DNA of 64,000 nucleotides from positions 6,111 to 70,110 of the IMG/VR virus record IMGVR_UViG_3300038829_000263. One strand, written 5' to 3'. Below, one piece after another: positions 1,400 through 14,132 of the stretch (the stretch's first letter is position 1; every line of letters starts with the position of its first letter). The DNA comes from a virus. The notes beneath the pieces were generated by a model. That model did no database searches. It was not told the DNA's origin and saw nothing but the letters and a program-made list of their open reading frames with translations. The translations under genes and the position numbers were made by a program.

Positions 1400-2350
1400 G
1401 TGACGGCGAAGAAGCAGCCCGCAGAGAACACCACGCCTCCAGGCATCCAGGCCCCCGACGGACGCTACCTGACCGCGTTCGCGCAGCGCCTCGCGCAGGC
1501 CGTGCTCGACAAGCACCGCCGCGACTACGAGATCGGCAAGCTCGTCGACGAGGCCGTGCGCGGCTACTACTGGCTGTTCTGGCCGCAGACCGAGGGCGGC
1601 CCCTACAAGACGATGCCGGAGTGGGCCTGGGCCGTCCTCCACTTCAAGCACAACAAGGCGTACAGCCTCCGCCAGATCTACCTCGCGCTCTCCGCCCTCC
1701 AGCCGTCGGAGCTGACGCTCGCGCGGTCCCTGCGGATCGGGTGGACGAAGCTGCTCCTCATCCTGCGCGTGGCCCGGACCGAGGACGCGCTCATCGCCTG
1801 GATCGACAGGATCGAGACGCACAGGCTGACCGAGCTGGACCTCCGCGTCGAGACGAAGATCGCGGCCGGCGAGGCGGATGAGGCCGAGGCCCCGGCGCTG
1901 GAGGAGCCCGCCGACCCGGTGCCCACGCCGAGGAGCAAGCACGGGATGAAGTCCCGCCGGCGCGCCCAGGACGAGGCAGCCGCCGCGGCGCTCGAGCATG
2001 CCCCCGAGGCCCCGCCGGAGCGGACCGACGGCCGGCCCCCGCTTTACGACACGCCGAAGGTCCGCCGCACGAAGTGGCCCCTCGTGTTCGAGGACGACGA
2101 GGCCCTGCGGATCTTCAAGGACGGGCTCAAGGTCATCGCGAAGCGCTACCCCGATGCCGGGCCCGGGCGCGCGGCGGCCCTCATGGCGACCCACTACATG
2201 GCCACGGCCGCCCGTGACGACGAGGGCGGCGCCGTCGTGGAGCTCGAAGTCGTGCTCCAGGCCCTGGAGAAGACCTACGGCGTCCGCCTCCAGGTGCTCG
2301 GGCCGGCCCCGAAGCGCCAACGCCGCGCCGAGGCCGCCCAGGACTTCTAG
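1400..2350 (+). CDS. hypothetical protein, possibly DNA-binding; C-terminal AAQDF tail
   Basis: Coupled ORF with GC3-biased codons. Confidence 0.6.
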   Translation: MTAKKQPAENTTPPGIQAPDGRYLTAFAQRLAQAVLDKHRRDYEIGKLVDEAVRGYYWLFWPQTEGGPYKTMPEWAWAVLHFKHNKAYSLRQIYLALSALQPSELTLARSLRIGWTKLLLILRVARTEDALIAWIDRIETHRLTELDLRVETKIAAGEADEAEAPALEEPADPVPTPRSKHGMKSRRRAQDEAAAAALEHAPEAPPERTDGRPPLYDTPKVRRTKWPLVFEDDEALRIFKDGLKVIAKRYPDAGPGRAAALMATHYMATAARDDEGGAVVELEVVLQALEKTYGVRLQVLGPAPKRQRRAEAAQDF

Positions 2351-2352
2351 CC

Positions 2353-2769
2353 GTGACGCCGCGCGAGCACGAGATCCTCGAGCGAGTGCTGCACGCCCCG
2401 GCGCTGCGTGCCTTCGCTGTCGTGCTCGCGTCCGAGGGGCTTGACGGGGCCCTGCACGCGTGCCGCGTCCGGCGGGTGTCTGCGGCTGTGGCGACGCGCC
2501 TGGCGGCCGGTTCCTGGACGGCCGAGCGGCATCTCCCGCCGGTCGAGTTCGTGGCCGACCTCGTGCTCGCCGCGCGCCTCCTGGCCACGGGCCCCCTGTC
2601 CCACCAGCTCGACGTGCGGGCGGCGGCGGACGAGCTCCAGCTACCCTTGTCCGAGGCCCGCAAGGCGCTCCAGACCTACGCGCGCTACGCGGCCTCGGCG
2701 CCGGCGTTGCCCCAGGAGCTGCAGGACATGCTCCCGCGGGTGCCCCGCATCCCCAAGGCGGTGATGTAG
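2353..2769 (+). CDS. hypothetical protein
   Basis: Coupled ORF. Confidence 0.6.
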   Translation: MTPREHEILERVLHAPALRAFAVVLASEGLDGALHACRVRRVSAAVATRLAAGSWTAERHLPPVEFVADLVLAARLLATGPLSHQLDVRAAADELQLPLSEARKALQTYARYAASAPALPQELQDMLPRVPRIPKAVM

Positions 2770-3257
2770 TGGCCACGGCACGAGAACTCCTCGACGCTCT
2801 GCGCGCCCGCGCGCGGAACTCGGCCGACCCTGGCAACTTCACGGTCGTGCTCCTCGTCGAGCGCGACCCGATCCTGACGCGGCTCATCGCGACCTGGCCG
2901 AACCTGCGCCTGCCTGCCGACCAGGACCCGAACGAGGTATGCCCACCCGAGACGCCCGAGGACCGCCGACTCCGCTGGCTCTGGTCGAGGATCCCCGGCG
3001 ACCCCTTCGGGGAGTGGCTGCGCCTGGCCGGCCTGCCTGACGCGGCCCACACGCGCCGTGCGTGCTGGATCGCGGCCGAGAACCGGATGGTGCTCCCCGA
3101 CGGCACCCTGGCCCCGGCGCTCCAGGGCCTCGTCCAGGCGCTCGTCACGCGCGCGGCGATCAGGCTCGGGGCGGCGCCGCCTCCCCCGCCCGAGCGGCGC
3201 CCAGCGCCTCCCCCGCCGGCGCCTGCACCGGCCGTCCCGGTCCAGGGCGCGCCGTGA
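2769..3257 (+). CDS. hypothetical protein, Pro-rich C-terminus
   Basis: GTG overlaps upstream TAG. Confidence 0.6.
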   Translation: MATARELLDALRARARNSADPGNFTVVLLVERDPILTRLIATWPNLRLPADQDPNEVCPPETPEDRRLRWLWSRIPGDPFGEWLRLAGLPDAAHTRRACWIAAENRMVLPDGTLAPALQGLVQALVTRAAIRLGAAPPPPPERRPAPPPPAPAPAVPVQGAP

Positions 3258-3628
3258 TCCTGCCGGGGAAGGCCCCGCACACGGGCCCCGACGGGATCGC
3301 CGTCGTGCGCCGCATGGCCCAGCGCTCGTGCGGGGTCGTGATCCCCGAGGTGATGGAGATGTTCAACATCTCCGACGACGCGGCCAGGAAGTTCGTCCTG
3401 CGCCTCGTGAAGCACGGCGTGCTCAAGCGCACGCGCGAGCGCCGACAGCGCCCGGATGCGGTCGCCTGGCCGCGCGGGGCGGGGGGCGTCGTGTATCGTG
3501 TTGGTAACAGCTACCGAATGGAGGGCGACGATGGGGCGGCTGGCGACGATGGCGAAGGCGGCGAAGGGGCTCAAGGGCCCGGTCCAGGTCACGTTCAGGG
3601 ACGGGACCTCGCGGACGTTCAAGGATGA
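3254..3628 (+). CDS. winged-HTH protein
   Basis: VIPEVMEMFNISDDAARKFVLRLVKHGVLKR is a wHTH pattern; 3' end overlaps the next gene out of frame. Confidence 0.6.
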   Translation: MILPGKAPHTGPDGIAVVRRMAQRSCGVVIPEVMEMFNISDDAARKFVLRLVKHGVLKRTRERRQRPDAVAWPRGAGGVVYRVGNSYRMEGDDGAAGDDGEGGEGAQGPGPGHVQGRDLADVQG

Positions 3629-3770
3629 GGTCGAGGCGGAGGCCGCCTGCAAGGGCCTCGCGCTCGAGCACAAGCGTGGGGCCTTCTTCGAGGCCGAGGG
3701 TGCGCTCCCCCCGCACGAGGACAAGCCCAGGCGGGGCAAGGACAAGGGAAAGTCCGAAGAGGGGGCTTGA
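3531..3770 (+). CDS. small basic hypothetical protein
   Basis: GGAGG SD upstream of ATG 3531. Confidence 0.55.
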   Translation: MGRLATMAKAAKGLKGPVQVTFRDGTSRTFKDEVEAEAACKGLALEHKRGAFFEAEGALPPHEDKPRRGKDKGKSEEGA

Positions 3771-3796
3771 CACCCGCGCCTCGCGCGCGATAGAAC
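3767..3796 (+). promoter_or_regulatory. sigma70-type promoter upstream of structured non-coding region
   Basis: TTGACA 3767-3772, 18 nt, TAGAAC 3791-3796. Confidence 0.55.
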
Positions 3797-3799
3797 CTG

Positions 3800-4200
3800 C
3801 CCCGCTGACGCGGTGGCCTGTCCGCCCCGGTTCACGCCGGAAGCGGGCCCCTGAACGGTGCCGAACGCCTCGTGCGGATGGTCCGGGCAGGGTCGGCCGG
3901 GCTAATACCCCGGTCGACGGGCTGACGTGGGACAGTCCTGTTCCTTCGGGGGCAGGGCCCGAGGACGCTCGGGCAGGTCGGCCAGGTGGCCGGCCGAGGG
4001 CGCAGGAGGTCCGGCCGGACCAAATGCGACCCGGGCCGGTGGACACGCTGACTCGCTGTGCGATAGGCCCCCCTGGGCGCCGACTCGACGCAGCCGACGA
4101 ACAACCTCGGGGAGACTTGGGGCCGAGCCGTCAGGGAAACCTGACGGCTCTCGTCGTTTCTGGACATCGCCTCCCGCGCCAGTTCCGTTGCTCCCCCAGG
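3800..4200 (+). ncRNA. candidate large structured ncRNA, family unknown
   Basis: No credible CDS; many nested stems including a c(UUCG)g hairpin 3937-3956 and a perfect 11-bp GAAA hairpin 4125-4150. Confidence 0.6.
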
Positions 4201-4238
4201 CAGATGCGCCTGCTGTAGGGGCACGCCCATGGCTTCCC

Positions 4239-4297
4239 CTTGCGCAAGGTAGCACGGGCGGCTAATATCGCCCTTGCCCGCCAGGAGCGGGAAGGAG
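4239..4297 (+). promoter_or_regulatory. repeated promoter-hairpin-SD cassette, copy 1
   Basis: CTTGCGCAAG palindrome; TTGCGC-N17-TAATAT; hairpin CCCGC/GCGGG; AAGGAG. Confidence 0.85.
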
Positions 4298-4304
4298 CGA
4301 CCGA

Positions 4305-4538
4305 ATGGCCCGGACCGACTGGAGCGAGCAGCAGGCGAAGGACGCGGTCAAGCGGGCCCAGGCGCGGGCGGGCAAGGGCTGGACCCTCCTCGGCCCCGAC
4401 CTCCAGAGCGCGCTCGTTTGCCGCGAGCTGATGTCGGTCGTCCTCGGGCAGGCCGAGGAGACGATGGTCAAGAACCCGGCCCTCGCGCACATCGCCGACG
4501 CGGCCCGCGCGGCCTTCGACATCCTCGGGGGCGAGTAG
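4305..4538 (+). CDS. hypothetical protein
   Basis: First gene after cassette. Confidence 0.7.
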   Translation: MARTDWSEQQAKDAVKRAQARAGKGWTLLGPDLQSALVCRELMSVVLGQAEETMVKNPALAHIADAARAAFDILGGE

Positions 4539-4540
4539 CC

Positions 4541-4822
4541 GTGGCGCGCCGGGTGGCCCGCGGTGCGGCCCTTCGCGCTCAGGTCAATATCGACGGACGG
4601 CCGCGGGACGTCTGGGTGCGCGCCCTGGAGGCGCAGCGCCAGGTCGACCACTTGCTCCTGTTCGACTGCGTCGTGCTGGCGACGGAGGCCGGCCGCGAGC
4701 GCACGATCGAGGCTGGCCTGGGCGACGGCCCCGAGGCGCGCGCCTTCTGCGTCTGGAACACCTACTCCGGTCGCTGGGATCTGGAGATCCGTGTCACCCC
4801 AACCGTCAACGAGGAGAAGTAG
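4541..4822 (+). CDS. hypothetical protein
   Basis: Coupled ORF. Confidence 0.6.
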   Translation: MARRVARGAALRAQVNIDGRPRDVWVRALEAQRQVDHLLLFDCVVLATEAGRERTIEAGLGDGPEARAFCVWNTYSGRWDLEIRVTPTVNEEK

Positions 4823-4824
4823 TC

Positions 4825-5661
4825 ATGGTCCAGGTCATCGAGAAGGGCGCCGAGGCGCGCCTGTTCGTCCACTGCGGCGCTCGCGAGGTCAGCCGCCAGG
4901 AGCTGACCGGCATCCCGACCCCGAAGCCGTCGGGGCGCTGGCACAAGCCCGTCCCGCACATCGAGCTCGTGCAGGCGATCGAGGCCGCCCTGCGCGAGCA
5001 GCAGCTCGACATCGTGGAGGAGCACCTGGCCGTCCAGGGGCAGGCGCGGACCTCGGCCGGGAAGTCGTTCGACGGCGCGGCGATGTTCGGGACCTGGCTC
5101 CTGCGGGCCCGCGGCGACCTGGCGGGCTTCATGCGCGCCGGCCAGTCCTTCGCCCTGGGCGCCCGCTCGGCCAACAACAACGCGTCGAAGGTCCAGACCG
5201 TGGCCGGGCTCAAGGTGTTCGTCTGCGACAACCTCGCCTTCAACGGCGACCTCATCACGATGCAGAAGAAGCACACGCTCAACCTGCGCCTCGAGCACGA
5301 GGTCAAGCAGGGCGTCCTCCGCTACTGCGAGCACATGGCCAAGTTCGTGACCGAGACCGACAAGGCGCGCGAGGTCGAGCTGACCGACGTGCGGGCGAAG
5401 GAACTGCTCTACGACGTGTTCGCGCAGGGCGTCCTCCCCTCCCGCTTCATCGGCGAGGTCCACGGGAACTACTTCGCGCCCCAGCCGGAGTGGACCGACG
5501 TCACGCAGCACCCGCGGACCCTCTGGGCGCTCCACAACTCGCTGACGCGGGTGATGCGCCCGGTGCCGAACGACGAGGGCCGGCTCGTCGAGCCCTTCAC
5601 CCCGGCGCAGAAGTTCAAGGCGACGGCGCGCCTGGGGAGGCTGCTGGCCCTTCTGAACTAG
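4825..5661 (+). CDS. DUF932/DUF945-family phage protein
   Basis: HKPVPHIEL...RSANNN...AGLKVFVCDNLAFNGD...KKHT signature. Confidence 0.8.
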   Translation: MVQVIEKGAEARLFVHCGAREVSRQELTGIPTPKPSGRWHKPVPHIELVQAIEAALREQQLDIVEEHLAVQGQARTSAGKSFDGAAMFGTWLLRARGDLAGFMRAGQSFALGARSANNNASKVQTVAGLKVFVCDNLAFNGDLITMQKKHTLNLRLEHEVKQGVLRYCEHMAKFVTETDKAREVELTDVRAKELLYDVFAQGVLPSRFIGEVHGNYFAPQPEWTDVTQHPRTLWALHNSLTRVMRPVPNDEGRLVEPFTPAQKFKATARLGRLLALLN

Positions 5662-5671
5662 GGAGCGCGAT

Positions 5672-5701
5672 GGCAGGGCCGCGGGGAAGCGCGGTCCTGC
5701 C
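5672..5701 (+). terminator. GC-rich terminator-like hairpin without U-tract
   Basis: GGCAGGGCCGCG-gggaag-CGCGGTCCTGCC, 12 bp. Confidence 0.5.
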
Positions 5702-5750
5702 TCCAGATAGGCAAGGATGACGCAAGTACTCCGGCGTAGGGGGCTTGCGA

Positions 5751-5801
5751 TTGCGGAACGAAACTCGATAGGCTAATATCCCGCGGGCCGGGGGACGGCC
5801 C
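5751..5801 (+). promoter_or_regulatory. variant promoter cassette lacking the palindrome
   Basis: TTGCGG-N17-TAATAT (GCTAATATC) followed by hairpin GGGCCG/CGGCCC. Confidence 0.7.
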
Positions 5802-5817
5802 ACCAAGGACGGTCACG

Positions 5818-6501
5818 GTGACGAAGAAGAAGGCGAAGGCGGCGAAGGGGAAGCGCGCCGCGAAGAAGCGCCCGAGCCGGTCGAAGCGGCCCGAGCGCAA
5901 CAAGGCGGTGGAGAAGAAGGCGACGACGAAGGCGGCGACGGAGCTCGACGGCGACGGCCGGGAGCGCCTGGTGGGGACGCTCGTGCGGGCGATGATCCGC
6001 ATGACCTCGCCCCTCCTGCGCGCCCACGCCGAGGCGATCGTGGACGGCCGCGGCTCCGGCAAGGCCGTGGGCGCGGCGGCCGCGACGCTCGAGGCGTTCA
6101 CGGTGGGCGGGAAGCTCATGCCCGCGCGCCCGGCCGCGCGCGCTGACCTGATCGAGGACGTGAGGGTGGCGGGCACGTGCTCGTTCACCGAGCCGGAGCT
6201 GGTCGCCCTGCGGAAGCGCAACGACGACGGCGTCTCCTGGTCGCAGCTCGCGGTGGAGCTGGGCGTCGACGTGACGACCCTGCACGCCCTGGCCTCGGGC
6301 AAGATCAAGGCCCGCGCCCCGCGCGAGCCGAAGGCGCCCAAGGTCGCGAAGAAGGCGAAGAAGGCGAAGGCCGAGGGCGGGAAGAAGCGCACGAGGAAGA
6401 AGGCGGCCGCCGCCCCGGCCGGCGAATGGCCAGCAGCCAGCAATGGCCACGCCCCGGCGCCTGCCCCGGCCCCCGCGGCCGCCGGCGTCTCGGACTTCTA
6501 G
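5818..6501 (+). CDS. Lys/Ala-rich (histone H1-like) protein with central XRE-like HTH; C-terminal VSDF
   Basis: KKKAKAAK tracts at both ends; VSWSQLAVELGVDVTTLHALASG. Confidence 0.65.
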   Translation: MTKKKAKAAKGKRAAKKRPSRSKRPERNKAVEKKATTKAATELDGDGRERLVGTLVRAMIRMTSPLLRAHAEAIVDGRGSGKAVGAAAATLEAFTVGGKLMPARPAARADLIEDVRVAGTCSFTEPELVALRKRNDDGVSWSQLAVELGVDVTTLHALASGKIKARAPREPKAPKVAKKAKKAKAEGGKKRTRKKAAAAPAGEWPAASNGHAPAPAPAPAAAGVSDF

Positions 6502-6506
6502 CATGC

Positions 6507-6547
6507 CGCGCGCAGAGCCCGGGGCCCTCCCTCGGGCTCTGCGCGCG
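6507..6547 (+). terminator. 18-bp terminator-like hairpin
   Basis: CGCGCGCAGAGCCCGGGG-ccctc-CCTCGGGCTCTGCGCGCG. Confidence 0.55.
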
Positions 6548-6564
6548 TTCGGAAAGAGGAGCGC

Positions 6565-7458
6565 ATGAGCTACCGGCCCATCTGTGACACCTGGATCCTG
6601 GCGCGGCCGAAGGTCCGCTACCACGGCGCCTACCCCTCGGGCTTCCTCTCGCGCGCCCGGGAGCTCCTGGGCGTCCACCCGCACGCGCCGGTCCTGCACG
6701 TGTGCGGCGGGAAGATCCGGGAGTACCCCTTCCGGGGCCTGGGCAAGAACGACAAGACGGTCGACTTGTCCCCAGACTGCAGGCCCGACTTCCTGATGGA
6801 CGTGCGGCGCCTGGGGGTTGGGGCAGGGGACTTGTTCCCAGAGGGCGTGCTCGCCGGCGCCCCGCTTAACCCGTGCCGGGTCGTCGAGCTGACGAAGGAA
6901 CTGCTCAAGCAGCGCGGCGCGCCCCCGGACAACCAGCTCTGGCCGGCGGCTCTGATCGACCGCCCCTACACGGAAGAGGACGCGGCCCACTACACCCCCG
7001 GCGCCGGGACCCTGCCCGAGGCCGGCGACCTCCTGCGCCGGGCCCTCTCGGTCGTCGTGCCCGGCGGGCGCGTCGGGATCCTGGACTACATCTGGCCCAG
7101 GCCGCCGAAGTGGGCGCGCCTCGTCGCCTGCGTCGGCGTCATCGTGGGCTACGCGAACCGCATGCGGGTCTACAGCGTGTTCGAGCGAATGCTGTCCGAA
7201 GCCGAGGTGGCCCAGGAGCCCGCGCCCGAGGGCCTTGACGAAGAACCCGTGTGCCTCGTTGACTCGGCGGCTATCACAACAGAGGACGCGTGGAGAACGG
7301 TCAAGGCATACGCGTCGCCCAGCCCTTCTGCAGGTGACGGCTACGATCCGGCCGTGCTCGACGACGTATCCGAGGAGGAGCGCAACGCCGTCTGCGCGGC
7401 GGCCGCGATCGACCCGGCCCTGGGCAAGGCACGCGGCGCGGCGGCCGAGGACTTCTAG
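6565..7458 (+). CDS. SAM-dependent amino-methyltransferase-like protein, atypical DRPY motif; C-terminal AAEDF
   Basis: YHGAYP, VLHVCGG (SAM-binding-like), TVDL..PDF, LIDRPY resembling DPPY. Confidence 0.55.
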   Translation: MSYRPICDTWILARPKVRYHGAYPSGFLSRARELLGVHPHAPVLHVCGGKIREYPFRGLGKNDKTVDLSPDCRPDFLMDVRRLGVGAGDLFPEGVLAGAPLNPCRVVELTKELLKQRGAPPDNQLWPAALIDRPYTEEDAAHYTPGAGTLPEAGDLLRRALSVVVPGGRVGILDYIWPRPPKWARLVACVGVIVGYANRMRVYSVFERMLSEAEVAQEPAPEGLDEEPVCLVDSAAITTEDAWRTVKAYASPSPSAGDGYDPAVLDDVSEEERNAVCAAAAIDPALGKARGAAAEDF

Positions 7459-7461
7459 CCC

Positions 7462-8295
7462 GTGGCCGACCTGGGGCGCCTCGTGGAGGAGTCCCTGCGC
7501 GTCCTGCGCGAGAGCCTGGACGCGGACGGGAACCTCCCCCCGCACCCGTGCAAGGGGTGCGGGGCGCCCCTGGGCGCGCCTGAGCGATGTTCGTCCTGCG
7601 GGTGGGTGGGCTCCTGGGACGGGGCCGTCTGCCCAGAGTGCGGGGAGAAGACGGCCGCCCGCGCCCAACCGGCCGAGCTGTACGGGGGCACCTACACGGG
7701 CCTGTGCCAGAGCTGCGTCAGCAAGGGCCCCTACCTCGACGAGACGCGCCCGGCGGAGCCCTCCGGCGCGCGCTGGTGGAGCCACCCGCCCCACTGCCCT
7801 TCCTGGCGCCGGGACCGCGAGTCGTTCCTCTACTTCGAGGGCGCGGACTGCTGCCGGTTCGGCCGCTTGAACGTGCCCCGCGCCGACACGCGCGGAGGCG
7901 ACTACGGCAAGCAGTGCGAGAAGTGCCGCGACCGGCACGAGCGCCACCCGGTAGTGCAGGAGACCTACAAGCAGGAGCACCTACTACGCGCGGCCCAGCT
8001 CGAGTGGCGCAAGCGCATGAGCGCGGAGTACGTGGCGCGCCTCTACGAGCACGGCTTCCTGCCCCCGGTCAGCGAAGCTGTTCACGCCGACTTCGCGGCT
8101 GGGGTGTTCCAGGACGGGCCCCCAGAGCCGACGCTGGCCCTGCCGCGCGTCGGCAAGTTCGCGAAGGAGTGGGCGCACGAAGGCCGCAACGGCGCGATCA
8201 TGCGCGGGGCGACGAAGGTCCCCCTACCCGACCCGGTCCGGGCCCGCGCGGCGGCGGCCCAGGCGAGGCTACGACACGCCGCGGAGGAGTTCTGA
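7462..8295 (+). CDS. multi-CxxC zinc-finger protein; C-terminal AAEEF
   Basis: CKGC, CSSC, CPEC, CQSC, CEKC. Confidence 0.6.
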   Translation: MADLGRLVEESLRVLRESLDADGNLPPHPCKGCGAPLGAPERCSSCGWVGSWDGAVCPECGEKTAARAQPAELYGGTYTGLCQSCVSKGPYLDETRPAEPSGARWWSHPPHCPSWRRDRESFLYFEGADCCRFGRLNVPRADTRGGDYGKQCEKCRDRHERHPVVQETYKQEHLLRAAQLEWRKRMSAEYVARLYEHGFLPPVSEAVHADFAAGVFQDGPPEPTLALPRVGKFAKEWAHEGRNGAIMRGATKVPLPDPVRARAAAAQARLRHAAEEF

Positions 8296-9320
8296 TGGCC
8301 AGCTCTGCCGATCTTGCTCTGCTCGTGAACCTCATGGCCGAAGGCGCCGAGGAGCTGCGCGGCCGCATCGAGGACCACGCGGACGCTCAGGAGAAGGGCC
8401 AGCAGGTCGCCTGGGACGCGGCGGCCTTGCACGTCACGGCCGCGCGCGCCGCGCTGATGGAGGCCGCCGGCGCCCTCATCCCCTTCCGAGGCGAGCGCCC
8501 CGGCGACTGGATCCAGGTGCTCGGCGGCCGGCGCGTCTGGCCCCTCGACCTCCGTGAGGACGAGATCCACTACGAGGACATCGCGCGCATGCTCGCGGCG
8601 AAGCCGCGGTTCTCCGGCTGCACGTCCAGGCTCGACGTGAAGAGTCGCCCGATCCGCTTCTGCTCCATCGCAGAGCACTCGCTCCGCGTGGCCTTCCTGG
8701 CCCGCCACATGGCCACGCGGGACGGCCTCTCGCCGCGCGAGATCGAGTCCGCCTGGAACCACGGTTGCGTGCACGACTCGCCCGAGGCGTACATGGCCGA
8801 CGCCCCGTACCCCGTGAAGCGCTTCCTGCTCCTGTGGGGCCTCATCGAGGACAAGGCCCACGAGCGCATCCTGGAGTACTTCTTCCTCCCGCCGCCCAGC
8901 ACGGCTGTGGCGGCCCTCGTGAAGCGGGCCGACCTCATCATGCGCGGCGTCGAGGCAGAGAAGTTCTTTCCGGCCCAGGACGTGTCGGAGTGGGCGCCCC
9001 TGGCGGTGAGCATCTTGCCCGACGAGTACGAGGTCGCCTGCCAGCAGCCCCGGCCGATCGACAAGGTCTACGACATCGAGCACTGGGAGGCGCTCATGTG
9101 CGTCGCGCTGGCCGACATCCGCCAGCGCAAGGTGGAGCTCGAGCCTCTCCCGGCGCGCACCCACCCGACGACGGGAGAGTCCGCCTGGAAGCAGGAGCTG
9201 ACCCGGGCCTTCGACGAAGGGCACGCGACCGAGGAGGAGATGCGCGGCGAACCCCCGCCGCATCTGCGTCACATGATGCTAGAGGACGAGGGCCCCAGCG
9301 CCCAGGAGGGCGCGCAGTGA
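8295..9320 (+). CDS. HD-domain phosphohydrolase (YfbR/YfdR-like 5'-deoxynucleotidase)
   Basis: EDIARMLAAKPRFSG...SIAEHS...HDSPEAYMAD. Confidence 0.8.
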   Translation: MASSADLALLVNLMAEGAEELRGRIEDHADAQEKGQQVAWDAAALHVTAARAALMEAAGALIPFRGERPGDWIQVLGGRRVWPLDLREDEIHYEDIARMLAAKPRFSGCTSRLDVKSRPIRFCSIAEHSLRVAFLARHMATRDGLSPREIESAWNHGCVHDSPEAYMADAPYPVKRFLLLWGLIEDKAHERILEYFFLPPPSTAVAALVKRADLIMRGVEAEKFFPAQDVSEWAPLAVSILPDEYEVACQQPRPIDKVYDIEHWEALMCVALADIRQRKVELEPLPARTHPTTGESAWKQELTRAFDEGHATEEEMRGEPPPHLRHMMLEDEGPSAQEGAQ

Positions 9321-9616
9321 TCCGCCACGTGAGCGCCCGCGGCAAGAACGGCACGCTCCTGTTCATGGGCCTGGACAGGCGGAACGTCGAGCGCCTGCTG
9401 GCCGGCGAGCCGATCCTGTTCGACCCCGCGCCCCTGGGCCTGCGCCTTGTGGCGGCCGAGTTCCGCGAGAGCGGGCCCGATCGCGTGGCCATCGCGGCCG
9501 GCGAGACCCTGCAGGACATCGCGCGGGAAGCCGGGCTACCCGTCATGCCTTCACCGGGCCCCGGTGGGGAGGTCCGCATCAGGCGCGACCTGCCTGATGA
9601 CGAGAGCTCGTCGTGA
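9317..9616 (+). CDS. hypothetical protein
   Basis: GTGA overlap. Confidence 0.6.
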   Translation: MIRHVSARGKNGTLLFMGLDRRNVERLLAGEPILFDPAPLGLRLVAAEFRESGPDRVAIAAGETLQDIAREAGLPVMPSPGPGGEVRIRRDLPDDESSS

Positions 9617-10269
9617 GCAGCCCCGGCTATTTCGAGTTCACGCACCTGGTCGACCAGGACGACGAGCACGAGCCGGAGTTCGAGGTCGAGGTTTCGTGCG
9701 ACATCGTGTCCATAGGGGACGGCGACCTGGAGGCGCGCGACGTCGTCGCCAAGCGTACGGACAACTTCCAGGAGCTGAGCGAGGACGCGATAGTACAGCT
9801 CGACCTGGGCTACCACGCCGTCGAGGCCATGATGTCGCGGACCCCCTGCTCGGGAGAGGACGAGGCGGGGTTCTACTACTCCCCGGACCTGGGCACGTTC
9901 TGGGAGGTGCTTGACGTCGCGAAGGTCGACTCTGTTTGTGCTTGGTACGTCCTGGCGCGCCGCCTGCTGGAGGACCCCCGGACGCTCGCCCAGCGCGCGT
10001 GCACCTGGTGCAAGAAGCCAGGCCACATCCGCTACTACGATGCTTGCCCCGATGGCCTGACCGCCCGCGCACGAGGCATCGGCGACCGAGCTCCCTGGAG
10101 GCTCCTCGAGTTCTTCCAGAGCCGGCGCTACATCGTCGGCGGTGACGTCCGGCGCTTCTGGCGCATCGAGTTGATCGGGCCTCCTCCCGAGGGCCAGTTC
10201 AGGCCGTGCGGCGTCATCTACGCCGGCGATCCTCTCCCGAAGGCCGATGCGGAGCGGGAGGACTGGTGA
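9613..10269 (+). CDS. hypothetical protein with CxxCxxxGH knuckle
   Basis: CTWCKKPGH. Confidence 0.6.
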   Translation: MSSPGYFEFTHLVDQDDEHEPEFEVEVSCDIVSIGDGDLEARDVVAKRTDNFQELSEDAIVQLDLGYHAVEAMMSRTPCSGEDEAGFYYSPDLGTFWEVLDVAKVDSVCAWYVLARRLLEDPRTLAQRACTWCKKPGHIRYYDACPDGLTARARGIGDRAPWRLLEFFQSRRYIVGGDVRRFWRIELIGPPPEGQFRPCGVIYAGDPLPKADAEREDW

Positions 10270-10454
10270 AGGCGCCCATCACCCTCTGTGGGAACTGCGA
10301 CGCGCACGCCTCGGGGCACATCGCGAAGGGGCACTGCGGCTACCCGCCGACGTACTACATGGTCGAGGGCGGGGACCTATTCGACGATGAGGGCAACGTC
10401 GTCGCCGAGCGCGTGGAGTGCCCAGGAGGGGACGCGTGCACGCACTTGGCGTGA
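10266..10454 (+). CDS. small Cys-rich protein
   Basis: Coupled ORF. Confidence 0.5.
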   Translation: MKAPITLCGNCDAHASGHIAKGHCGYPPTYYMVEGGDLFDDEGNVVAERVECPGGDACTHLA

Positions 10455-10705
10455 CGCCGGCCTGCGCGCACGGCTACATCTGGCGCTGGGAGTGGGGCTG
10501 CGGGATCCTCTGGCGCGTCCTGGGCTGCTGGCCCTGCAGCGTAGAAGTGCTCAAGCTGGGCGCCGAGACGCACGCGACGAAAGGCGCCTGGGAGTGGCAG
10601 GCGCCCGGCCAGCCCTACCCAGAGGAGTTGGCCGCCTTGCCTCCGATGCAGCGCACCCTGTTCGGCCCGGACGAGCCGACCGCCCGGCCGCGGAGGATCG
10701 CGTGA
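10451..10705 (+). CDS. hypothetical protein
   Basis: Coupled ORF. Confidence 0.45.
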   Translation: MTPACAHGYIWRWEWGCGILWRVLGCWPCSVEVLKLGAETHATKGAWEWQAPGQPYPEELAALPPMQRTLFGPDEPTARPRRIA

Positions 10706-10899
10706 ACAGGCGCTGCATCGTGTGCGACCACAGCCGCGTCCGTGCCCACAAGGGCACGAGCCTGTGCGACCCCTGCGGCCGAGCCTACGACCGCTACTCG
10801 CGCGCCGGCGGCGGCTCGGTGTGGGACGTCATCGTGTGGGCCGCGCGCAGGGCCCGCCGCTACGCCCGGCGGCGCGGGCCGAAGGCCATCGAGCCATGA
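10702..10899 (+). CDS. small zinc-finger protein
   Basis: CIVC...CDPC. Confidence 0.5.
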   Translation: MNRRCIVCDHSRVRAHKGTSLCDPCGRAYDRYSRAGGGSVWDVIVWAARRARRYARRRGPKAIEP

Positions 10900-11564
10900 G
10901 CACGGAACGGAAGGCCCCAGCAGGCGTCATCGGCCCCAAGGGCGGCGCGCTAGACACGACGTGGCAGACGCCGCCCGAGCTCCTCGTGCCGCCCAGGGAG
11001 TACTGGGGCGGCGCCATCCCCTTCGACGTGGCGACCTCGATCACGAACCCGACGGCGGCCCTCGGCTACTGGACCGCGATCGACGACGCCCTCGCCCGCG
11101 AGTGGCCGAAGGCGCTGTGGGTGAACCCGCCCTACGGGAAGGGCCTGCGCCTTTGGCTGCTCAAGATGGCCGACGCGGCGCAAAAGGGCAGCGAGATCAT
11201 CTCCCTCCTCCCCTGCGCCCGGTGGGAGCAGCGCTACTTCCAGACGGCGCTCGCGCAGGCAAACGCCGTGTGCATGATCCGCAAGCGGGTGAACTTCATC
11301 CGCGCCTCGACGGGGGACGCCGTCTCCGGGAACACCTACGCGAACATGTACCTGGGGTGGAACGTCGACGTAGACAGGTTCACCAAGACGCACAGCCCCC
11401 AGGGCGCGTGCTTCGCCCTCCGCTGCACGGCCGGGCCGCCCCTCATCGAGCCCGTGCGCCGGTCAGGTAAGCGGCCGCGGAAGGATCTCCCAGCCCCGAT
11501 CGCGGCGCTGCGGGCTCGCCTCCTCTCCGTGGCAGGTCTGCCCGCTGGCGCGTCCGAGTTCTGA
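10896..11564 (+). CDS. phage DNA N6-adenine methyltransferase (Dam-phage family); C-terminal ASEF
   Basis: WQTPPEL, FDVATS, WVNPPYG, LLPCAR, RVNF. Confidence 0.85.
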   Translation: MSTERKAPAGVIGPKGGALDTTWQTPPELLVPPREYWGGAIPFDVATSITNPTAALGYWTAIDDALAREWPKALWVNPPYGKGLRLWLLKMADAAQKGSEIISLLPCARWEQRYFQTALAQANAVCMIRKRVNFIRASTGDAVSGNTYANMYLGWNVDVDRFTKTHSPQGACFALRCTAGPPLIEPVRRSGKRPRKDLPAPIAALRARLLSVAGLPAGASEF

Positions 11565-11578
11565 TGTAGACTCCTGAC

Positions 11579-11935
11579 ATGTACGAGTACTGGGCGACAC
11601 CCCTGCGCGTCGTGGACGGGGACACGTTCGTGGCGATGATCGACCTGGGGCTGCGCGTGTCCAAGCAGGAGACGCTGCGCCTGCGCGGCATCGACACGCC
11701 CGAGATGAACTCGCCGGACCCGGCCCTGCGGGCGAAGGCGGCCGAGGCCAAGACCCGGCTGTACCAGCTCCTGGGCCTGGGCATGACCGGCGCGCCGCGG
11801 GTGCGCATCCGGACGGAGAAGCCCTACGAGACGGACAAGTACGGCCGCTGGCTCGCGGACGTCATCCTGGCCGACGAGCGCAAGGTCTCGGCCGTGCTCC
11901 TGGTCGAGGGCCTGGCCGTGCCCTACATGGTGTGA
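11579..11935 (+). CDS. thermonuclease (SNase family)
   Basis: VVDGDT, LRLRGIDTPE, DKYGRWLA. Confidence 0.9.
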   Translation: MYEYWATPLRVVDGDTFVAMIDLGLRVSKQETLRLRGIDTPEMNSPDPALRAKAAEAKTRLYQLLGLGMTGAPRVRIRTEKPYETDKYGRWLADVILADERKVSAVLLVEGLAVPYMV

Positions 11936-11938
11936 GCC

Positions 11939-12706
11939 GTGCTCGACTGCCTCTTGACCGTCCCGCATGGTGCCGAGGGTAACGACGTGGCCGCGCCCCT
12001 CGTGGCGCGGCCGCTCCTCGGGCTCCTGCAGGAGGCGGGCTGGCGCGCGGGCCTCGTCATCAACTACGCCGACCGCCTCGACGTCGTCGACATGAACCGG
12101 CCGACCTCGCGGGACACGACGTTCCGCCAGGCCGTGGCAGAGCGCCTCCCAGCGCGCCTGCTCCTCGACGTGCACTCCTTCCCCAACCACGCCGAGCGGT
12201 TCAAGCAGCACGACATCGTGCTCTTGTTCACCCCTGGGGTGCAGGATCCCTCCTGGCTCGCCGGCTACGCCGCGTTGCTCGAGCAGGCCGGCGACTCGCT
12301 GGGGGTCGCGCCGCGCGTGTCCATCCAGCCCGCCCAGGCCGTCGACGACATCGTGATCGCGGCCGTCGAGGGCGGTCAGTCGCCTCGCGGGAACATGCTG
12401 GCCGAGCACAACGAGGACGGGGACCCACTCCTCTACGCCGCGCTCCACGCCAGGGCGATCGGCGGCGTGCTGCGGGGCGCGAGCCTGGCCGAGGCCGCCC
12501 CGTCGTTCTTGGTAGGACAGCGCGTGCGAATGGTGCGATGGCAACAGACCGACTGGAGCGCGGCGCCGAAGTCCTACATCGGAAAGACGGGGACCGTCGT
12601 TGAGCTGGAGGACACCCGTGGGCGCTGGACGCCCAGGGCGTTCCGCGTGGCCTTCGACGGCGCGGCTGCCGAGTGGGCGCTCGAGGACTGGCTGGCACCC
12701 GCGTGA
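11939..12706 (+). CDS. Zn-amidohydrolase-like protein (N-formylglutamate amidohydrolase fold) with C-terminal KOW/SH3-like domain
   Basis: LLTVPHG and LLDVHSF; VGQRVR...GKTGTVVE. Confidence 0.45.
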   Translation: MLDCLLTVPHGAEGNDVAAPLVARPLLGLLQEAGWRAGLVINYADRLDVVDMNRPTSRDTTFRQAVAERLPARLLLDVHSFPNHAERFKQHDIVLLFTPGVQDPSWLAGYAALLEQAGDSLGVAPRVSIQPAQAVDDIVIAAVEGGQSPRGNMLAEHNEDGDPLLYAALHARAIGGVLRGASLAEAAPSFLVGQRVRMVRWQQTDWSAAPKSYIGKTGTVVELEDTRGRWTPRAFRVAFDGAAAEWALEDWLAPA

Positions 12707-12716
12707 GAGGCGCTGT

Positions 12717-13241
12717 ATGACCCGGTACCACCCGCGGCGCATCATCCCGCACGGGCCCCACAACGTGCCTGGGGCGACGCCTTTCCTCCAGGAGCCCGCG
12801 GCCGCTCCGCCCTCGGCGGATGCGGTCGCTCGGCCGGACGTGTTGATGCGGCGCATCCAGCCCATGGCCGACGCGGTCAAGGCCCGGTTCGAGAACGACC
12901 CCCAGCAGCTCGCCTGGAACGCGCAGAAGGACCCCCGGGGGATGGCCGAGGCGCTCAAGGTCGCCGGCGCCCGCCTGAGCGGCATGGCGCGCTGCCACGA
13001 GGAGCTCCTGCGGGCCCTGGCCCGGCACGCCGGCGGCTTCCAGATCGTGGCGAAGCTCGTCTCCCCGGCTGTGCTCAGTGGGACGTGCGTGGGCATCTAC
13101 CGGTGGGACATGGACCGCGCGCTCAAGGCGGGCGCCCCGGCCGCGCGCGTCCTGCGCGGGGCGACCCTGGAGTCCGTCCTGTGCGAGGTCATCCGGGCGA
13201 TGTTCCCCCAGCCGCCGCGGTCGTGGGTGCCACCGCGTTGA
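12717..13241 (+). CDS. hypothetical protein
   Basis: GC3-biased ORF. Confidence 0.55.
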   Translation: MTRYHPRRIIPHGPHNVPGATPFLQEPAAAPPSADAVARPDVLMRRIQPMADAVKARFENDPQQLAWNAQKDPRGMAEALKVAGARLSGMARCHEELLRALARHAGGFQIVAKLVSPAVLSGTCVGIYRWDMDRALKAGAPAARVLRGATLESVLCEVIRAMFPQPPRSWVPPR

Positions 13242-13265
13242 AAAGTCGGCATCGGCTGGTAATAT
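13238..13265 (+). promoter_or_regulatory. promoter of ParB/deazaguanine operon
   Basis: TTGAAA-N16-TAATAT followed by CGCC, same -10 context as the cassettes. Confidence 0.65.
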
Positions 13266-13286
13266 CGCCCAGCGGAGGCCAGGCGG

Positions 13287-14132
13287 ATGGCGCGCACGAA
13301 GAAGGGGCAGGCCGTGGACACGTCGATCCCGGCCTCCGGCAAGCTCGAGGACGACGTGGCCGCGGTTTACCTGCCGGCGGCCGACCTGACGCCCTGGGAC
13401 AAGAACCCGAGGCGCATCCCGGAGTCGGCCGTGCTCAAGGTCGCCCGGATCGTGGCGACGGTCGCGTTCGGCGCGCCGCTCCTGGCGCACGACCCTACGA
13501 AGCGCGTGATCGCCGGGCACACGCGCCTCCTGGCCTTCAACTACCTGCTGGGCCTCCTCGACAAGTTCGGCGCGCCCCAGCCCGGTCAGACCTGGCCCGA
13601 GGGCGCCGAGGCCCCGCCCGAGTGGTGGCCGACGCTCAAGCCCGCAACCCTGGCGCTCCTCCAGCAGCGGCGCCTGCCCGTGCGCATGCTGGCCGTCAGC
13701 GACGAGGAGGCCGACCAGCTCGCCATCGCCGACAACCGCCTGGGCCAGGAGGCGGAGTGGGACTACGAGGCCCTGGCGAACATCCTCCGCGGCTTCGGGT
13801 CCGACGCCGGCCGGCTCCTGACGGGCTTCGATCCGCACGAGCTCGAGCCCCTGCTCGCGGCCGAGTGGACGCCCCCGCCCATCGGCCCGCTGCCCGGGCA
13901 GGAACCGGGCGCCGGTGATGTGCCTCCTCCCCCGCCCGCCGGCGCGGTCGTCTTGACGCCCGAGCAGCGCGTGGTCTGGGAGAAGGCCCTCGTCGAGGCC
14001 CGCGACCTGTGGGGAGAGGAGCTGGCCGAGGGCGCCGCCCTCATCGAGATCGCGCAGAGCTGGCTCGCGGCCCACGAGGAGGACGAGGAGCCGGAGCCGG
14101 CCGGCAAGGGTACCGCCGCCGAGGACTTCTAG
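13287..14132 (+). CDS. ParB/Srx N-terminal-domain protein; C-terminal AAEDF
   Basis: LTPWDKNPR, FGAPLL, VIAGHTRL, LAIADNRL. Confidence 0.8.
   Translation: MARTKKGQAVDTSIPASGKLEDDVAAVYLPAADLTPWDKNPRRIPESAVLKVARIVATVAFGAPLLAHDPTKRVIAGHTRLLAFNYLLGLLDKFGAPQPGQTWPEGAEAPPEWWPTLKPATLALLQQRRLPVRMLAVSDEEADQLAIADNRLGQEAEWDYEALANILRGFGSDAGRLLTGFDPHELEPLLAAEWTPPPIGPLPGQEPGAGDVPPPPPAGAVVLTPEQRVVWEKALVEARDLWGEELAEGAALIEIAQSWLAAHEEDEEPEPAGKGTAAEDF

What the first reader, a model, noticed from the sequence alone, without database searches (positions are those of the whole stretch)
2327..14132. Shared C-terminal [DE]-F-stop tail on six proteins of the DNA-metabolism region
Seen: 1400-2350 ends AEAAQDF*, 5818-6501 AAAGVSDF*, 6565-7458 GAAAEDF*, 7462-8295 HAAEEF*, 10896-11564 AGASEF*, 13287-14132 GTAAEDF*. 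The tails usually follow Ala/Pro-rich linkers. The proteins are unrelated: two methyltransferase-like, ParB-like, H1/HTH, a Zn-finger and an unknown. I did not see this ending among the called genes outside the first 14.2 kb. Known: an acidic tail ending in Phe is the docking peptide of SSBs (E. coli SSB ...DDDIPF, T7 gp2.5 ...DEDGDF). Inference: a phage-encoded docking code that recruits modification and chromosome proteins to one hub (replisome, clamp or SSB-binding pocket), or a degron. Four copies share GGACTTCTAGC at the DNA level, so a nucleic-acid motif is an alternative.
Basis: partly seen in the sequence, partly recalled or inferred. Interest (0 to 1): 0.8.

Follow-up and report, generated by a model that had tools for sequence, protein, structure and literature searches.

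The report
Shared Phe-tipped tails on phage DNA enzymes
Eight unrelated DNA-handling proteins of an uncultured 150-kb phage, including its DNA methyltransferases, end in the same short peptide tipped by phenylalanine; the peptide is kept by selection, changes in step within each related phage, and is most likely a common docking handle for one still unidentified partner.

Summary
Genome-wide there are 8 [DE]-F-stop ends among 197 genes against 0.8 expected. Seven of them lie in one run of 25 genes. Five share A-A-[EQ]-[DE]-F, which occurs only at C-termini.

The signal is at the peptide level, not the DNA level. Orthologues and unrelated neighbours in five other uncultured high-GC phage contigs carry the tail with different codons, stop codons and downstream context. 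Twenty contigs with the same methyltransferase family carry a bare enzyme core and background rates of such ends.

Each genome has its own version of the tail: AAEDF, AMTDF, L[DS]EF or M-x-DF. This points to one co-evolving receptor.

The virus record is trimmed. The missing 7.6 kb encodes a family-A DNA polymerase, two primases and an SSB-like protein with a very long disordered linker and a Phe tip.

The closest known system is the T7 pair gp2.5 and gp4, whose tails dock on the polymerase, together with bacterial SSB tips. Here the tail sits on more proteins, it is barely acidic, and it includes DNA-modification enzymes.

The receptor is unknown, and a degron role is not excluded. This scan has noted Phe-tipped shared tails in other phages before.

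The parts
1400..2350 (+). 316-aa protein of unknown function. It has two helical domains and a disordered tail; the tail ..RRAEAAQDF is encoded at about 2321-2347.
   Evidence: Translation. The AF2 model from 51 homologues gives helical domains at 20-155 and 233-293, with low confidence over 156-230 and 294-316. There is no significant PDB match. Cluster representatives of its family end in DF, EF, GF, PF, DL, DI or EGFG.
5818..6501 (+). 227-aa Lys/Ala/Pro-rich protein, possibly with an HTH; tail ..AAAGVSDF.
   Evidence: Translations. The only Pfam match is a weak HTH_3 hit, E = 0.13.
6565..7458 (+). DNA methyltransferase. The core is about residues 1-210, followed by a 90-residue extension ending ..RGAAAEDF.
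   Evidence: phrog_3816, E = 3e-30. Most homologues are bare cores of 175-230 aa; extended ones end in SDF, QEF, TDF, FDF, DGF, MPF or LPF. In 20 other viral contigs the enzyme has no tail.
7462..8295 (+). 277-aa Cys-rich protein, putatively a zinc ribbon; tail ..RLRHAAEEF.
   Evidence: Translation. The Pfam DZR match is below its cut-off, E = 1e-3.
9613..10269 (+). 218-aa protein ending ..AEREDW. It may be a Trp-tipped variant of the tail and is not counted in the statistics.
   Evidence: Gene call and listing of C-terminal ends. No Pfam family.
10896..11564 (+). Dam-type N6-adenine DNA methyltransferase; tail ..LPAGASEF.
   Evidence: PF05869, E = 6e-18; phrog_111. Dam genes in contigs L019 and L009 (the L009 one matches by tblastn; L019 by Pfam and synteny only) end ..AEASEF and ..NLGDVF.
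13287..14132 (+). ParB-like protein, the first gene of the 7-deazaguanine DNA-modification operon; acidic linker and tail ..GKGTAAEDF.
   Evidence: phrog_620, E = 3e-22. Its closest homologues (40-53% identity) end in GVGDF, GMCDF, GASDF, KLDEF or SGAF, while more distant ParB-methylase fusions lack the tail. It is followed by DpdA-like and QueC genes.

Best explanation
The [DE]-F-COOH ending is the tip of a short linear motif of about 5 to 10 residues. In this phage it reads [RK]-x-x-A-A-[EQ]-[DE]-F. It sits at the end of a flexible Ala/Pro-rich extension and has been added to unrelated DNA-handling proteins of one clade of uncultured high-GC phages. These proteins are two DNA methyltransferases, the ParB-like protein of the 7-deazaguanine operon, a UvrD-like helicase, a basic protein with a possible HTH, a Cys-rich protein and two proteins of unknown function.

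It most likely acts as a common docking handle. The terminal Phe and its free carboxylate, with the neighbouring acidic residue, would plug into one pocket on a single receptor. That would bring DNA-modification and DNA-maintenance proteins to the place where phage DNA is made.

The tail version differs between related phages but is uniform within each. The receptor is therefore probably phage-encoded and fast-evolving. The leading candidates are parts of the phage's T7-like replisome: the family-A polymerase, the DnaB-like helicase, or the SSB-like protein, which itself ends in Phe.

Shown: enrichment, peptide-level conservation, modular gain and loss, within-genome uniformity, and the disordered context. 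Inferred: that the motif binds a partner, which partner, and that the outcome is recruitment.
For: 1. Enrichment and position. There are 8 of 197 such ends against 0.8 expected. The 5-residue motif is found only at C-termini.

2. Peptide-level conservation. Homologues and syntenic counterparts of the ParB-like, Dam, MTase, UvrD-like and 316-aa proteins keep a [DE]F or F tip while the linkers diverge. Codons and stops vary: GAC/GAT, GCC/GCG, TAG/TGA/TAA. In L007 the SD of the next gene lies after the stop.

3. Recurrence on unrelated neighbours in other genomes.
- L009: 5 [DE]F ends and 7 F ends in the first 27 genes, and none in the next 28.
- G001 (118 kb): AMTDF three times, AMVDF, PMTDF, AAAEF and DEPF twice.
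- L007: MMDF and MCDF. L019: ASEF and SGAF.

4. Within-genome uniformity. Positions -5 to -2 are more alike within genomes than between them: 1.44 against 0.75 identities, with 0 of 20,000 shuffles reaching this.

5. Negative controls. In 20 viral contigs with the same MTase family the enzyme is a bare core, and only 2 of about 394 genes end in [DE]F.

6. Context. The tail is disordered in the AF2 model and the linker is rich in Ala, Pro and Gly.

7. Replisome. The 7.6 kb trimmed from the record encodes PolA, two primases and a 532-aa protein. That protein has a Cys4-containing N-domain, a P/G/Q/Y-rich linker of about 270 residues and the tip ..DPASF; its relative ends ..KDEPF.

8. Precedent. 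The acidic tail of T7 gp2.5 contacts a basic patch on the T7 polymerase (text of PMC12339929), and papers cited there report that its terminal Phe is essential.
Against: No partner has been shown.

The tails are much less acidic than T7 or SSB tails. Usually one or two acidic residues follow Ala-rich sequence.

The DnaB-like helicase of this phage has no such tail, unlike T7 gp4.

The G001 counterpart of the 316-aa protein lacks the tail, so the tail is dispensable for at least that protein.

In G001 the SSB-like tip (DEPF) differs from the common version (AMTDF), which may mean two receptors.

Within-genome uniformity could partly reflect short gene-conversion tracts. TAG stops are mildly over-represented after the tails: 12 of 22 against 6.8 expected, P = 0.018.
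Confidence: 0.55

Rival explanations
1. The docking idea is the same, but the receptor is a conserved host protein. Candidates are the beta sliding clamp or one of the proteins that bind the host SSB tip. The tails would then mimic a host peptide.
For: The G000 record has no clamp and no PF00436 SSB. Some tails in relatives resemble host-type SSB tips: DEPF in G001, and ELPF and KMPF in L022. The L009 tails x-L-D-E-F resemble the clamp motif QL[SD]LF in three of five positions (the motif itself is from my own knowledge).
Against: Host SSB tips and clamp motifs are highly conserved, whereas the tail versions here diverge between related phages. The penultimate residue is acidic, where clamp motifs need a hydrophobic residue and SSB tips a Pro. 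The host is unknown, so nothing could be tested.
Confidence: 0.15
2. The tail is a C-terminal degron. A host or phage protease or adaptor would recognise it and remove these DNA-modification and other early-region proteins on schedule.
For: It is a terminal, disordered and transferable tag on many unrelated proteins, seven of the eight clustered in the DNA-metabolism region. A shared adaptor would also explain the within-genome uniformity.
Against: The tail does not resemble known bacterial C-terminal degrons such as ssrA-type ..LAA (own knowledge). The SSB-like protein and the UvrD-like helicase, which should be needed throughout replication, also carry Phe tips. Degrading one's own DNA-protective methyltransferases has no obvious benefit.
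Confidence: 0.12
3. Each tail folds back on its own protein's DNA-binding surface as an autoinhibitory DNA mimic, as described for T7 gp2.5 and SSB tails. There would be no common partner.
For: All carriers with an assigned function are DNA-binding or DNA-modifying proteins. Fold-back of acidic tails is described for T7 gp2.5 and E. coli SSB (own knowledge).
Against: The carrier domains are unrelated, so independent intramolecular sites would not produce one genome-wide version that changes in step. The tails carry only one or two acidic residues.
Confidence: 0.08
4. The signal lies in the nucleic acid. It could be an embedded Shine-Dalgarno and coupling signal for the next gene, a termination context, or a recombination joint at gene ends. 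The peptide would then be a by-product.
For: GGACTTCTAGC is shared exactly by four genes. GAGGA lies 8-10 nt before the next start in three cases. TAG is mildly enriched after the tails.
Against: Three AAEDF tails differ at synonymous sites and in their stop codon. The tails persist where no gene follows closely. In L007 the SD follows the stop, and L009 uses GAG TTC TGA. GAC and TTC are 89% and 98% of their codon families, so the peptide forces most of the 11-mer. The motif never occurs off-frame or internally.
Confidence: 0.03
5. The tail is a packaging signal that loads these proteins into the capsid for injection together with the DNA.
For: Some phages package DNA-protecting enzymes, for example P1 DarB (own knowledge). 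The tail-bearing UvrD-like helicase gene lies among the structural genes.
Against: The known capsid-targeting signals I can recall are N-terminal. Nothing in the data links the tails to head proteins. The SSB-like tip fits replication better.
Confidence: 0.04

Closest known systems
Phage T7 acidic C-terminal tails of gp2.5 (SSB) and gp4 (primase-helicase), which dock on gp5 DNA polymerase
   Same: Several proteins of one phage share a disordered C-terminal tail that ends in acidic residue plus Phe-COOH. The phage has a family-A polymerase replisome without a clamp. Its SSB-like protein also ends in Phe.
   Different: There are eight or nine carriers here instead of two. They include DNA methyltransferases and a ParB-like DNA-modification protein rather than core replisome parts. 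The tails are Ala-rich with only one or two acidic residues. The replicative DnaB-like helicase lacks the tail. Binding to the polymerase has not been shown.
Bacterial SSB C-terminal tip (..D-D-D-[IL]-P-F) and its interactome
   Same: A terminal Phe with a free carboxylate at the end of a long flexible linker, used as a general docking peptide. Relatives of this phage have true DEPF and ELPF tips.
   Different: In this phage the penultimate residue is Asp or Glu, not Pro. The peptide sits on the client enzymes rather than on the SSB hub. The sequence varies between related phages.
Clamp-binding C-terminal peptides (bacterial QL[SD]LF; T4/RB69 polymerase, gp33 and gp55 tails on gp45; DNMT1 PIP box on PCNA)
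   Same: One short terminal peptide shared by many DNA enzymes tethers them to a replication platform. DNMT1-PCNA is the precedent for coupling a DNA methyltransferase to replication (own knowledge).
   Different: No clamp gene was found. The motif positions do not fit: there is no Gln, and an acidic residue stands where a hydrophobic one is required.

Membership tests
T7-type acidic Phe-terminated docking tails (gp2.5 / gp4) | Phe is the very last residue of a disordered C-terminal extension | tested here: met
   All eight proteins end in F directly before the stop. The tail has low pLDDT in the AF2 model.
T7-type acidic Phe-terminated docking tails (gp2.5 / gp4) | Strongly acidic tail, with many Asp/Glu in the last 15-25 residues | tested here: not met
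   Most tails are Ala/Pro/Arg-rich with one or two acidic residues. Asp is not enriched and Glu only slightly (1.3-fold) over -40 to -6. Only the ParB-like and UvrD-like tails are clearly acidic.
T7-type acidic Phe-terminated docking tails (gp2.5 / gp4) | Carried by the SSB and the replicative helicase of a family-A polymerase replisome | tested here: inconclusive
   PolA is present in the trimmed 7.6 kb. The putative SSB ends ..DPASF. The DnaB-like helicase ends ..KQGAA and has no tail. The SSB assignment rests on architecture and on a weak gp32 lead.
T7-type acidic Phe-terminated docking tails (gp2.5 / gp4) | The tail binds the DNA polymerase | not testable with these tools
   This needs a binding assay, and no usable computational answer was obtained.
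Bacterial SSB C-terminal tip | Consensus acidic run followed by [IL/P]-P-F, with a penultimate Pro | tested here: not met
   The penultimate residue is D or E in all eight G000 tails. DEPF, ELPF and MPF tips occur only in the relatives G001 and L022.
Beta-clamp-binding motif QL[SD]LF | Gln at -4, Leu at -3 and a hydrophobic residue at -1 before the terminal Phe | tested here: not met
   In 45 non-redundant tails, position -1 is D or E in 31 of 45 and position -4 is mostly Ala. No clamp gene was found.
Short linear docking motif in general | Conserved in orthologues while the flanks diverge, found in a disordered context, and gained and lost as a module | tested here: met

The most novel reading that the evidence does not exclude
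A clade of uncultured high-GC phages uses a co-evolving, Phe-tipped C-terminal address tag to tether its DNA-modification enzymes (adenine methyltransferases and the ParB-like partner of the 7-deazaguanine pathway), together with accessory DNA proteins, to a phage-encoded receptor at the replication fork. An alternative site is a replication compartment built by the SSB-like protein and its 270-residue P/G/Q/Y-rich linker. Either way, new DNA would be modified as it is made. This would be a phage counterpart of DNMT1-PCNA coupling, with its own private peptide code.
Probability: 0.3. Interest if true: 0.75.

Novelty: new variant of a known kind. Interest (0 to 1): 0.6.

Why it matters
Phage DNA must be modified before host restriction enzymes reach it. 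How modification enzymes find nascent phage DNA is largely unknown. A transferable tail that recruits methyltransferases and a deazaguanine-pathway protein to one receptor would give a testable mechanism for co-replicative DNA protection.

It would also extend the T7-type docking tail from two core replisome proteins to a whole set of client proteins. The genome-specific versions offer a natural experiment for finding the receptor by co-variation. In addition, the tail could serve as a marker for picking out functionally linked proteins among phage genes of unknown function.

Tried and rejected
1. Co-fold. The phage family-A polymerase (2-row alignment A2) was co-folded with the last 42 residues of the methyltransferase. 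The verdict was no answer (score 0.00, controls not run). This is no evidence either way.

2. Putative SSB N-domain. The AF2 model from a 2-row alignment was unusable (pLDDT 34). Profile and sequence searches of PDB, Pfam, PHROGs and cultured phages found nothing. The only lead is a weak ESM-Atlas link to gp32.

3. Close relatives. None turned up in cultured phages, in plasmids, or in IMG/VR searches with the ParB-like and 316-aa proteins. Later IMG/VR scans found one related 118-kb record, G001. The host could not be identified.

4. Protein X (window 11939-12706) as receptor. It is a conserved hydrolase-like protein present in every tail-bearing contig. I rejected it as a specific lead because its motifs suggest an enzyme of the N-formylglutamate-amidohydrolase type, and because more distant homologues in eight other viral contigs have no tail-bearing neighbours.

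5. Searches of the G000 record for a clamp, a PF00436 SSB, or polymerase families A, B or C were all negative. The polymerase turned out to lie in the trimmed part.

6. Fold search of the 316-aa protein gave no significant PDB match.

7. The contig of a methyltransferase with a DGF-type tail could not be read, because no DNA was held for it.
Full report
**1. Observation**

The window has 71% G+C. It is part of a 143,219-bp IMG/VR virus record.

A codon-usage gene call of the whole record gives 197 genes. Eight end in [DE]F:
- a 252-aa coiled-coil and Pro-rich protein just upstream of the window (..RSAAAEDF);
- a 744-aa UvrD-like helicase at genome 80.4-82.7 kb (..DDLDDF; Pfam UvrD-helicase and UvrD_C).

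The expected number is 0.8 (P = 1.8e-6). Seven of the eight lie in 25 consecutive genes. The longer motif A-A-[EQ]-[DE]-F occurs five times, always at a C-terminus and never internally (expected 0.0012). The 35 residues before the tails are enriched in Ala, Pro and Gly.

**2. The carrier proteins**

- Window 6565-7458 is a DNA methyltransferase (phrog_3816).
- Window 10896-11564 is a Dam-type methyltransferase (PF05869).
- Window 13287-14132 is ParB-like. It opens the 7-deazaguanine operon, which includes DpdA-like and Gat-QueC genes.
- Window 7462-8295 is Cys-rich, with a sub-threshold zinc-ribbon match.
- Window 5818-6501 is Lys/Ala/Pro-rich, with a weak HTH hit.
- Window 1400-2350 has no family. 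An AF2 model from 51 homologues shows two helical domains, a disordered linker and a disordered tail. It has no significant PDB match.

**3. Peptide or DNA?**

GGACTTCTAGC occurs four times in the record, only at these stops. However, GAC is 89% of Asp codons and TTC is 98% of Phe codons, so the peptide dictates most of that string.

The three ..AAEDF tails differ at synonymous Ala codons and in their stop codon. In related contigs the same kind of tail is written GAT TTC TAG, GAG TTC TGA or GAC TTT TAA. In L007 the Shine-Dalgarno sequence of the next gene follows the stop instead of lying inside the tail. The feature is therefore selected at the peptide level.

One small residue remains unexplained. 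TAG follows the tails more often than expected: 12 of 22 against 6.8 (P = 0.018).

**4. Conservation and modularity**

The closest homologues of the ParB-like protein (40-53% identity) end in GVGDF, GMCDF, GASDF, KLDEF or SGAF after unalignable linkers. More distant ParB-methylase fusions have no such end.

Among cluster representatives of the 316-aa family, five end in [DE]F (the query included) and six more in another F tip (GF, TF, QF, IF, PF, NF). Others show close variants such as DL, DI, DV and EGFG.

Most homologues of the methyltransferase are bare cores of 175-230 aa. Among the 21 extended ones, five end in [DE]F and others end in DGF, MPF or LPF.

As a control, I examined 20 IMG/VR contigs carrying the same methyltransferase family. 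There the enzyme is a 176-191 aa core, and only 2 of about 394 called genes end in [DE]F. That is 0.5%, the background rate.

**5. Other genomes of the clade**

- Contig L009/L018 (66% GC) has 7 F-ended genes, 5 of them [DE]F, among its first 27 genes and none among the next 28. The carriers are Dam, a ParB-like protein, an N6_N4 methyltransferase and four unknowns.
- L007 has an MT-A70 methyltransferase (..AMMDF) and a ParB-like protein (..GMCDF).
- L019 has Dam (..ASEF) and a ParB-like protein (..SGAF).
- L021 has the methyltransferase (..ATSDF).
- G001 is a 118-kb relative with 61 reciprocal best hits to this phage. It carries AMTDF three times, AMVDF, PMTDF (the methyltransferase orthologue), AAAEF (the UvrD orthologue), LDGFE and DEPF twice.

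Only some carriers are orthologous between genomes. The 316-aa protein's counterpart in G001 lacks the tail. So the tail is gained and lost as a module.

**6. Each genome has its own version of the tail**

Positions -5 to -2 are far more alike within a genome than between genomes: 1.44 against 0.75 identical positions, and none of 20,000 label shuffles reached this. The versions are:
- this phage: [RK]xxAA[EQ][DE]F;
- G001: (F/L)xxAM[TV]DF;
- L009: L[DS]EF;
- L007: M-x-DF.

Unrelated proteins changing in step is the signature of a shared, co-evolving receptor. The divergence between related phages argues for a phage-encoded rather than a conserved host receptor. This last step is inference.

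**7. The replisome**

The G000 record has no clamp, no PF00436 SSB and no polymerase of families A, B or C. However, the record is trimmed.

The same phage on ENA contig k127_159187 (locus L023) carries 7.6 kb between the record's two ends. It encodes a DnaG-like primase, a 532-aa protein, a 799-aa family-A polymerase and an AEP primase.

The 532-aa protein has three parts: a 245-residue N-domain with C-x13-C-x3-C-x2-C, a P/G/Q/Y-rich linker of about 270 residues, and the tip ..EHDPASF. Its relative in L020/G001 ends ..SKDEPF. This is the architecture of an SSB. A weak ESM-Atlas lead points to T4 gp32. The assignment is not proven.

The phage therefore has a T7-like, clamp-less replisome with an SSB that is probably Phe-tipped.

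**8. Mechanism**

The best reading is a shared docking peptide. The precedent is T7. [quoted passage not shown] That the gp4 tail docks on the polymerase in the same way is from my own knowledge.

Bacterial SSB tips and clamp-binding peptides work on the same principle (own knowledge). Formal membership of those families fails on defined features: the tails here are barely acidic, they lack the penultimate Pro, and they do not fit QL[SD]LF.

The receptor is unknown. The remaining rivals are docking to a host hub, a degron, autoinhibitory fold-back, a packaging signal and a DNA-level signal. The last is essentially excluded.

**9. Relation to earlier notes of this scan**

Other agents have reported shared Phe-tipped tails that change in step on replication proteins of several unrelated phages. 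I did not check those notes. They suggest that the principle is widespread. What is particular here is the number of carriers, the inclusion of DNA-modification enzymes and the low acidity of the tails.

**10. Verdict**

This is a real, selected and lineage-specific C-terminal motif. It is a new variant of a known kind of docking tail. The partner and the outcome are unproven.

Noticed in passing
G000 ends; locus L023:11509-19168: The IMG/VR 'provirus' record is a trimmed, circularly permuted phage genome. About 7.6 kb between its right and left ends is missing from the record. It encodes two small proteins, a DnaG-like primase, an SSB-like protein, a family-A DNA polymerase, a 73-aa protein and an AEP primase.
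   Followed up: yes
L023:13116-14714 (outside the window): A 532-aa protein has a Cys4-containing 245-aa N-domain, a Pro/Gly/Gln/Tyr-rich low-complexity linker of about 270 residues and the tip ..DPASF. It is probably a gp32-like SSB with an exceptionally long disordered linker. Its fold could not be confirmed.
   Followed up: partly
window 11939-12706 and 12717-13241: Two adjacent genes are conserved next to the methyltransferase and ParB-like genes in the tail-bearing contigs (the first in all of them, the second in all except L021). The first has motifs TVPHGA, DMNR, DVHSFP and LAEHN, which suggest a metal hydrolase of the N-formylglutamate-amidohydrolase type. It may be an unrecognised DNA-modification enzyme.
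   Followed up: partly
genome 3282, 5026 and 7267; window 1400, 5818 and 13287 (N-termini): Six proteins of the same region start with a Lys-rich N-terminus: MAKKKAKA, MARKKKAP, MKKGD, MTAKKQPA, MTKKKAKA and MARTKKGQ. Four of them also carry the Phe tail. This could be a second shared motif, or A-rich start codons that favour translation in a high-GC genome.
   Followed up: no
window 9613-10269: A 218-aa protein in the same gene run ends ..AEREDW. It may be a Trp-tipped variant of the tail.
   Followed up: no
stops of tail-bearing genes in G000, G001, L007, L009, L019 and L021: TAG is used after the tails more often than the genome-wide stop usage predicts: 12 of 22 against 6.8 expected, P = 0.018. 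This is unexplained.
   Followed up: partly
window 4825-5661: A 278-aa protein with high codon-usage score is a DUF932-like phage protein by ESM-Atlas features and structure (TM 0.81). Its function is unknown.
   Followed up: partly
L023:14774-17173: The family-A polymerase carries a CxxC...CxxC insertion, a probable zinc ribbon followed by a basic stretch, between polymerase motifs A and B. It may be an accessory-factor binding site.
   Followed up: no
locus L022 (IMG-independent ENA contig, 61% GC): In an unrelated contig the same methyltransferase family ends ..KKKMPF after a Lys-rich linker. A 92-aa neighbour ends ..DNDELPF and a 211-aa neighbour ends ..DESPW. This is another tail version, here of the classical SSB tip type.
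   Followed up: partly
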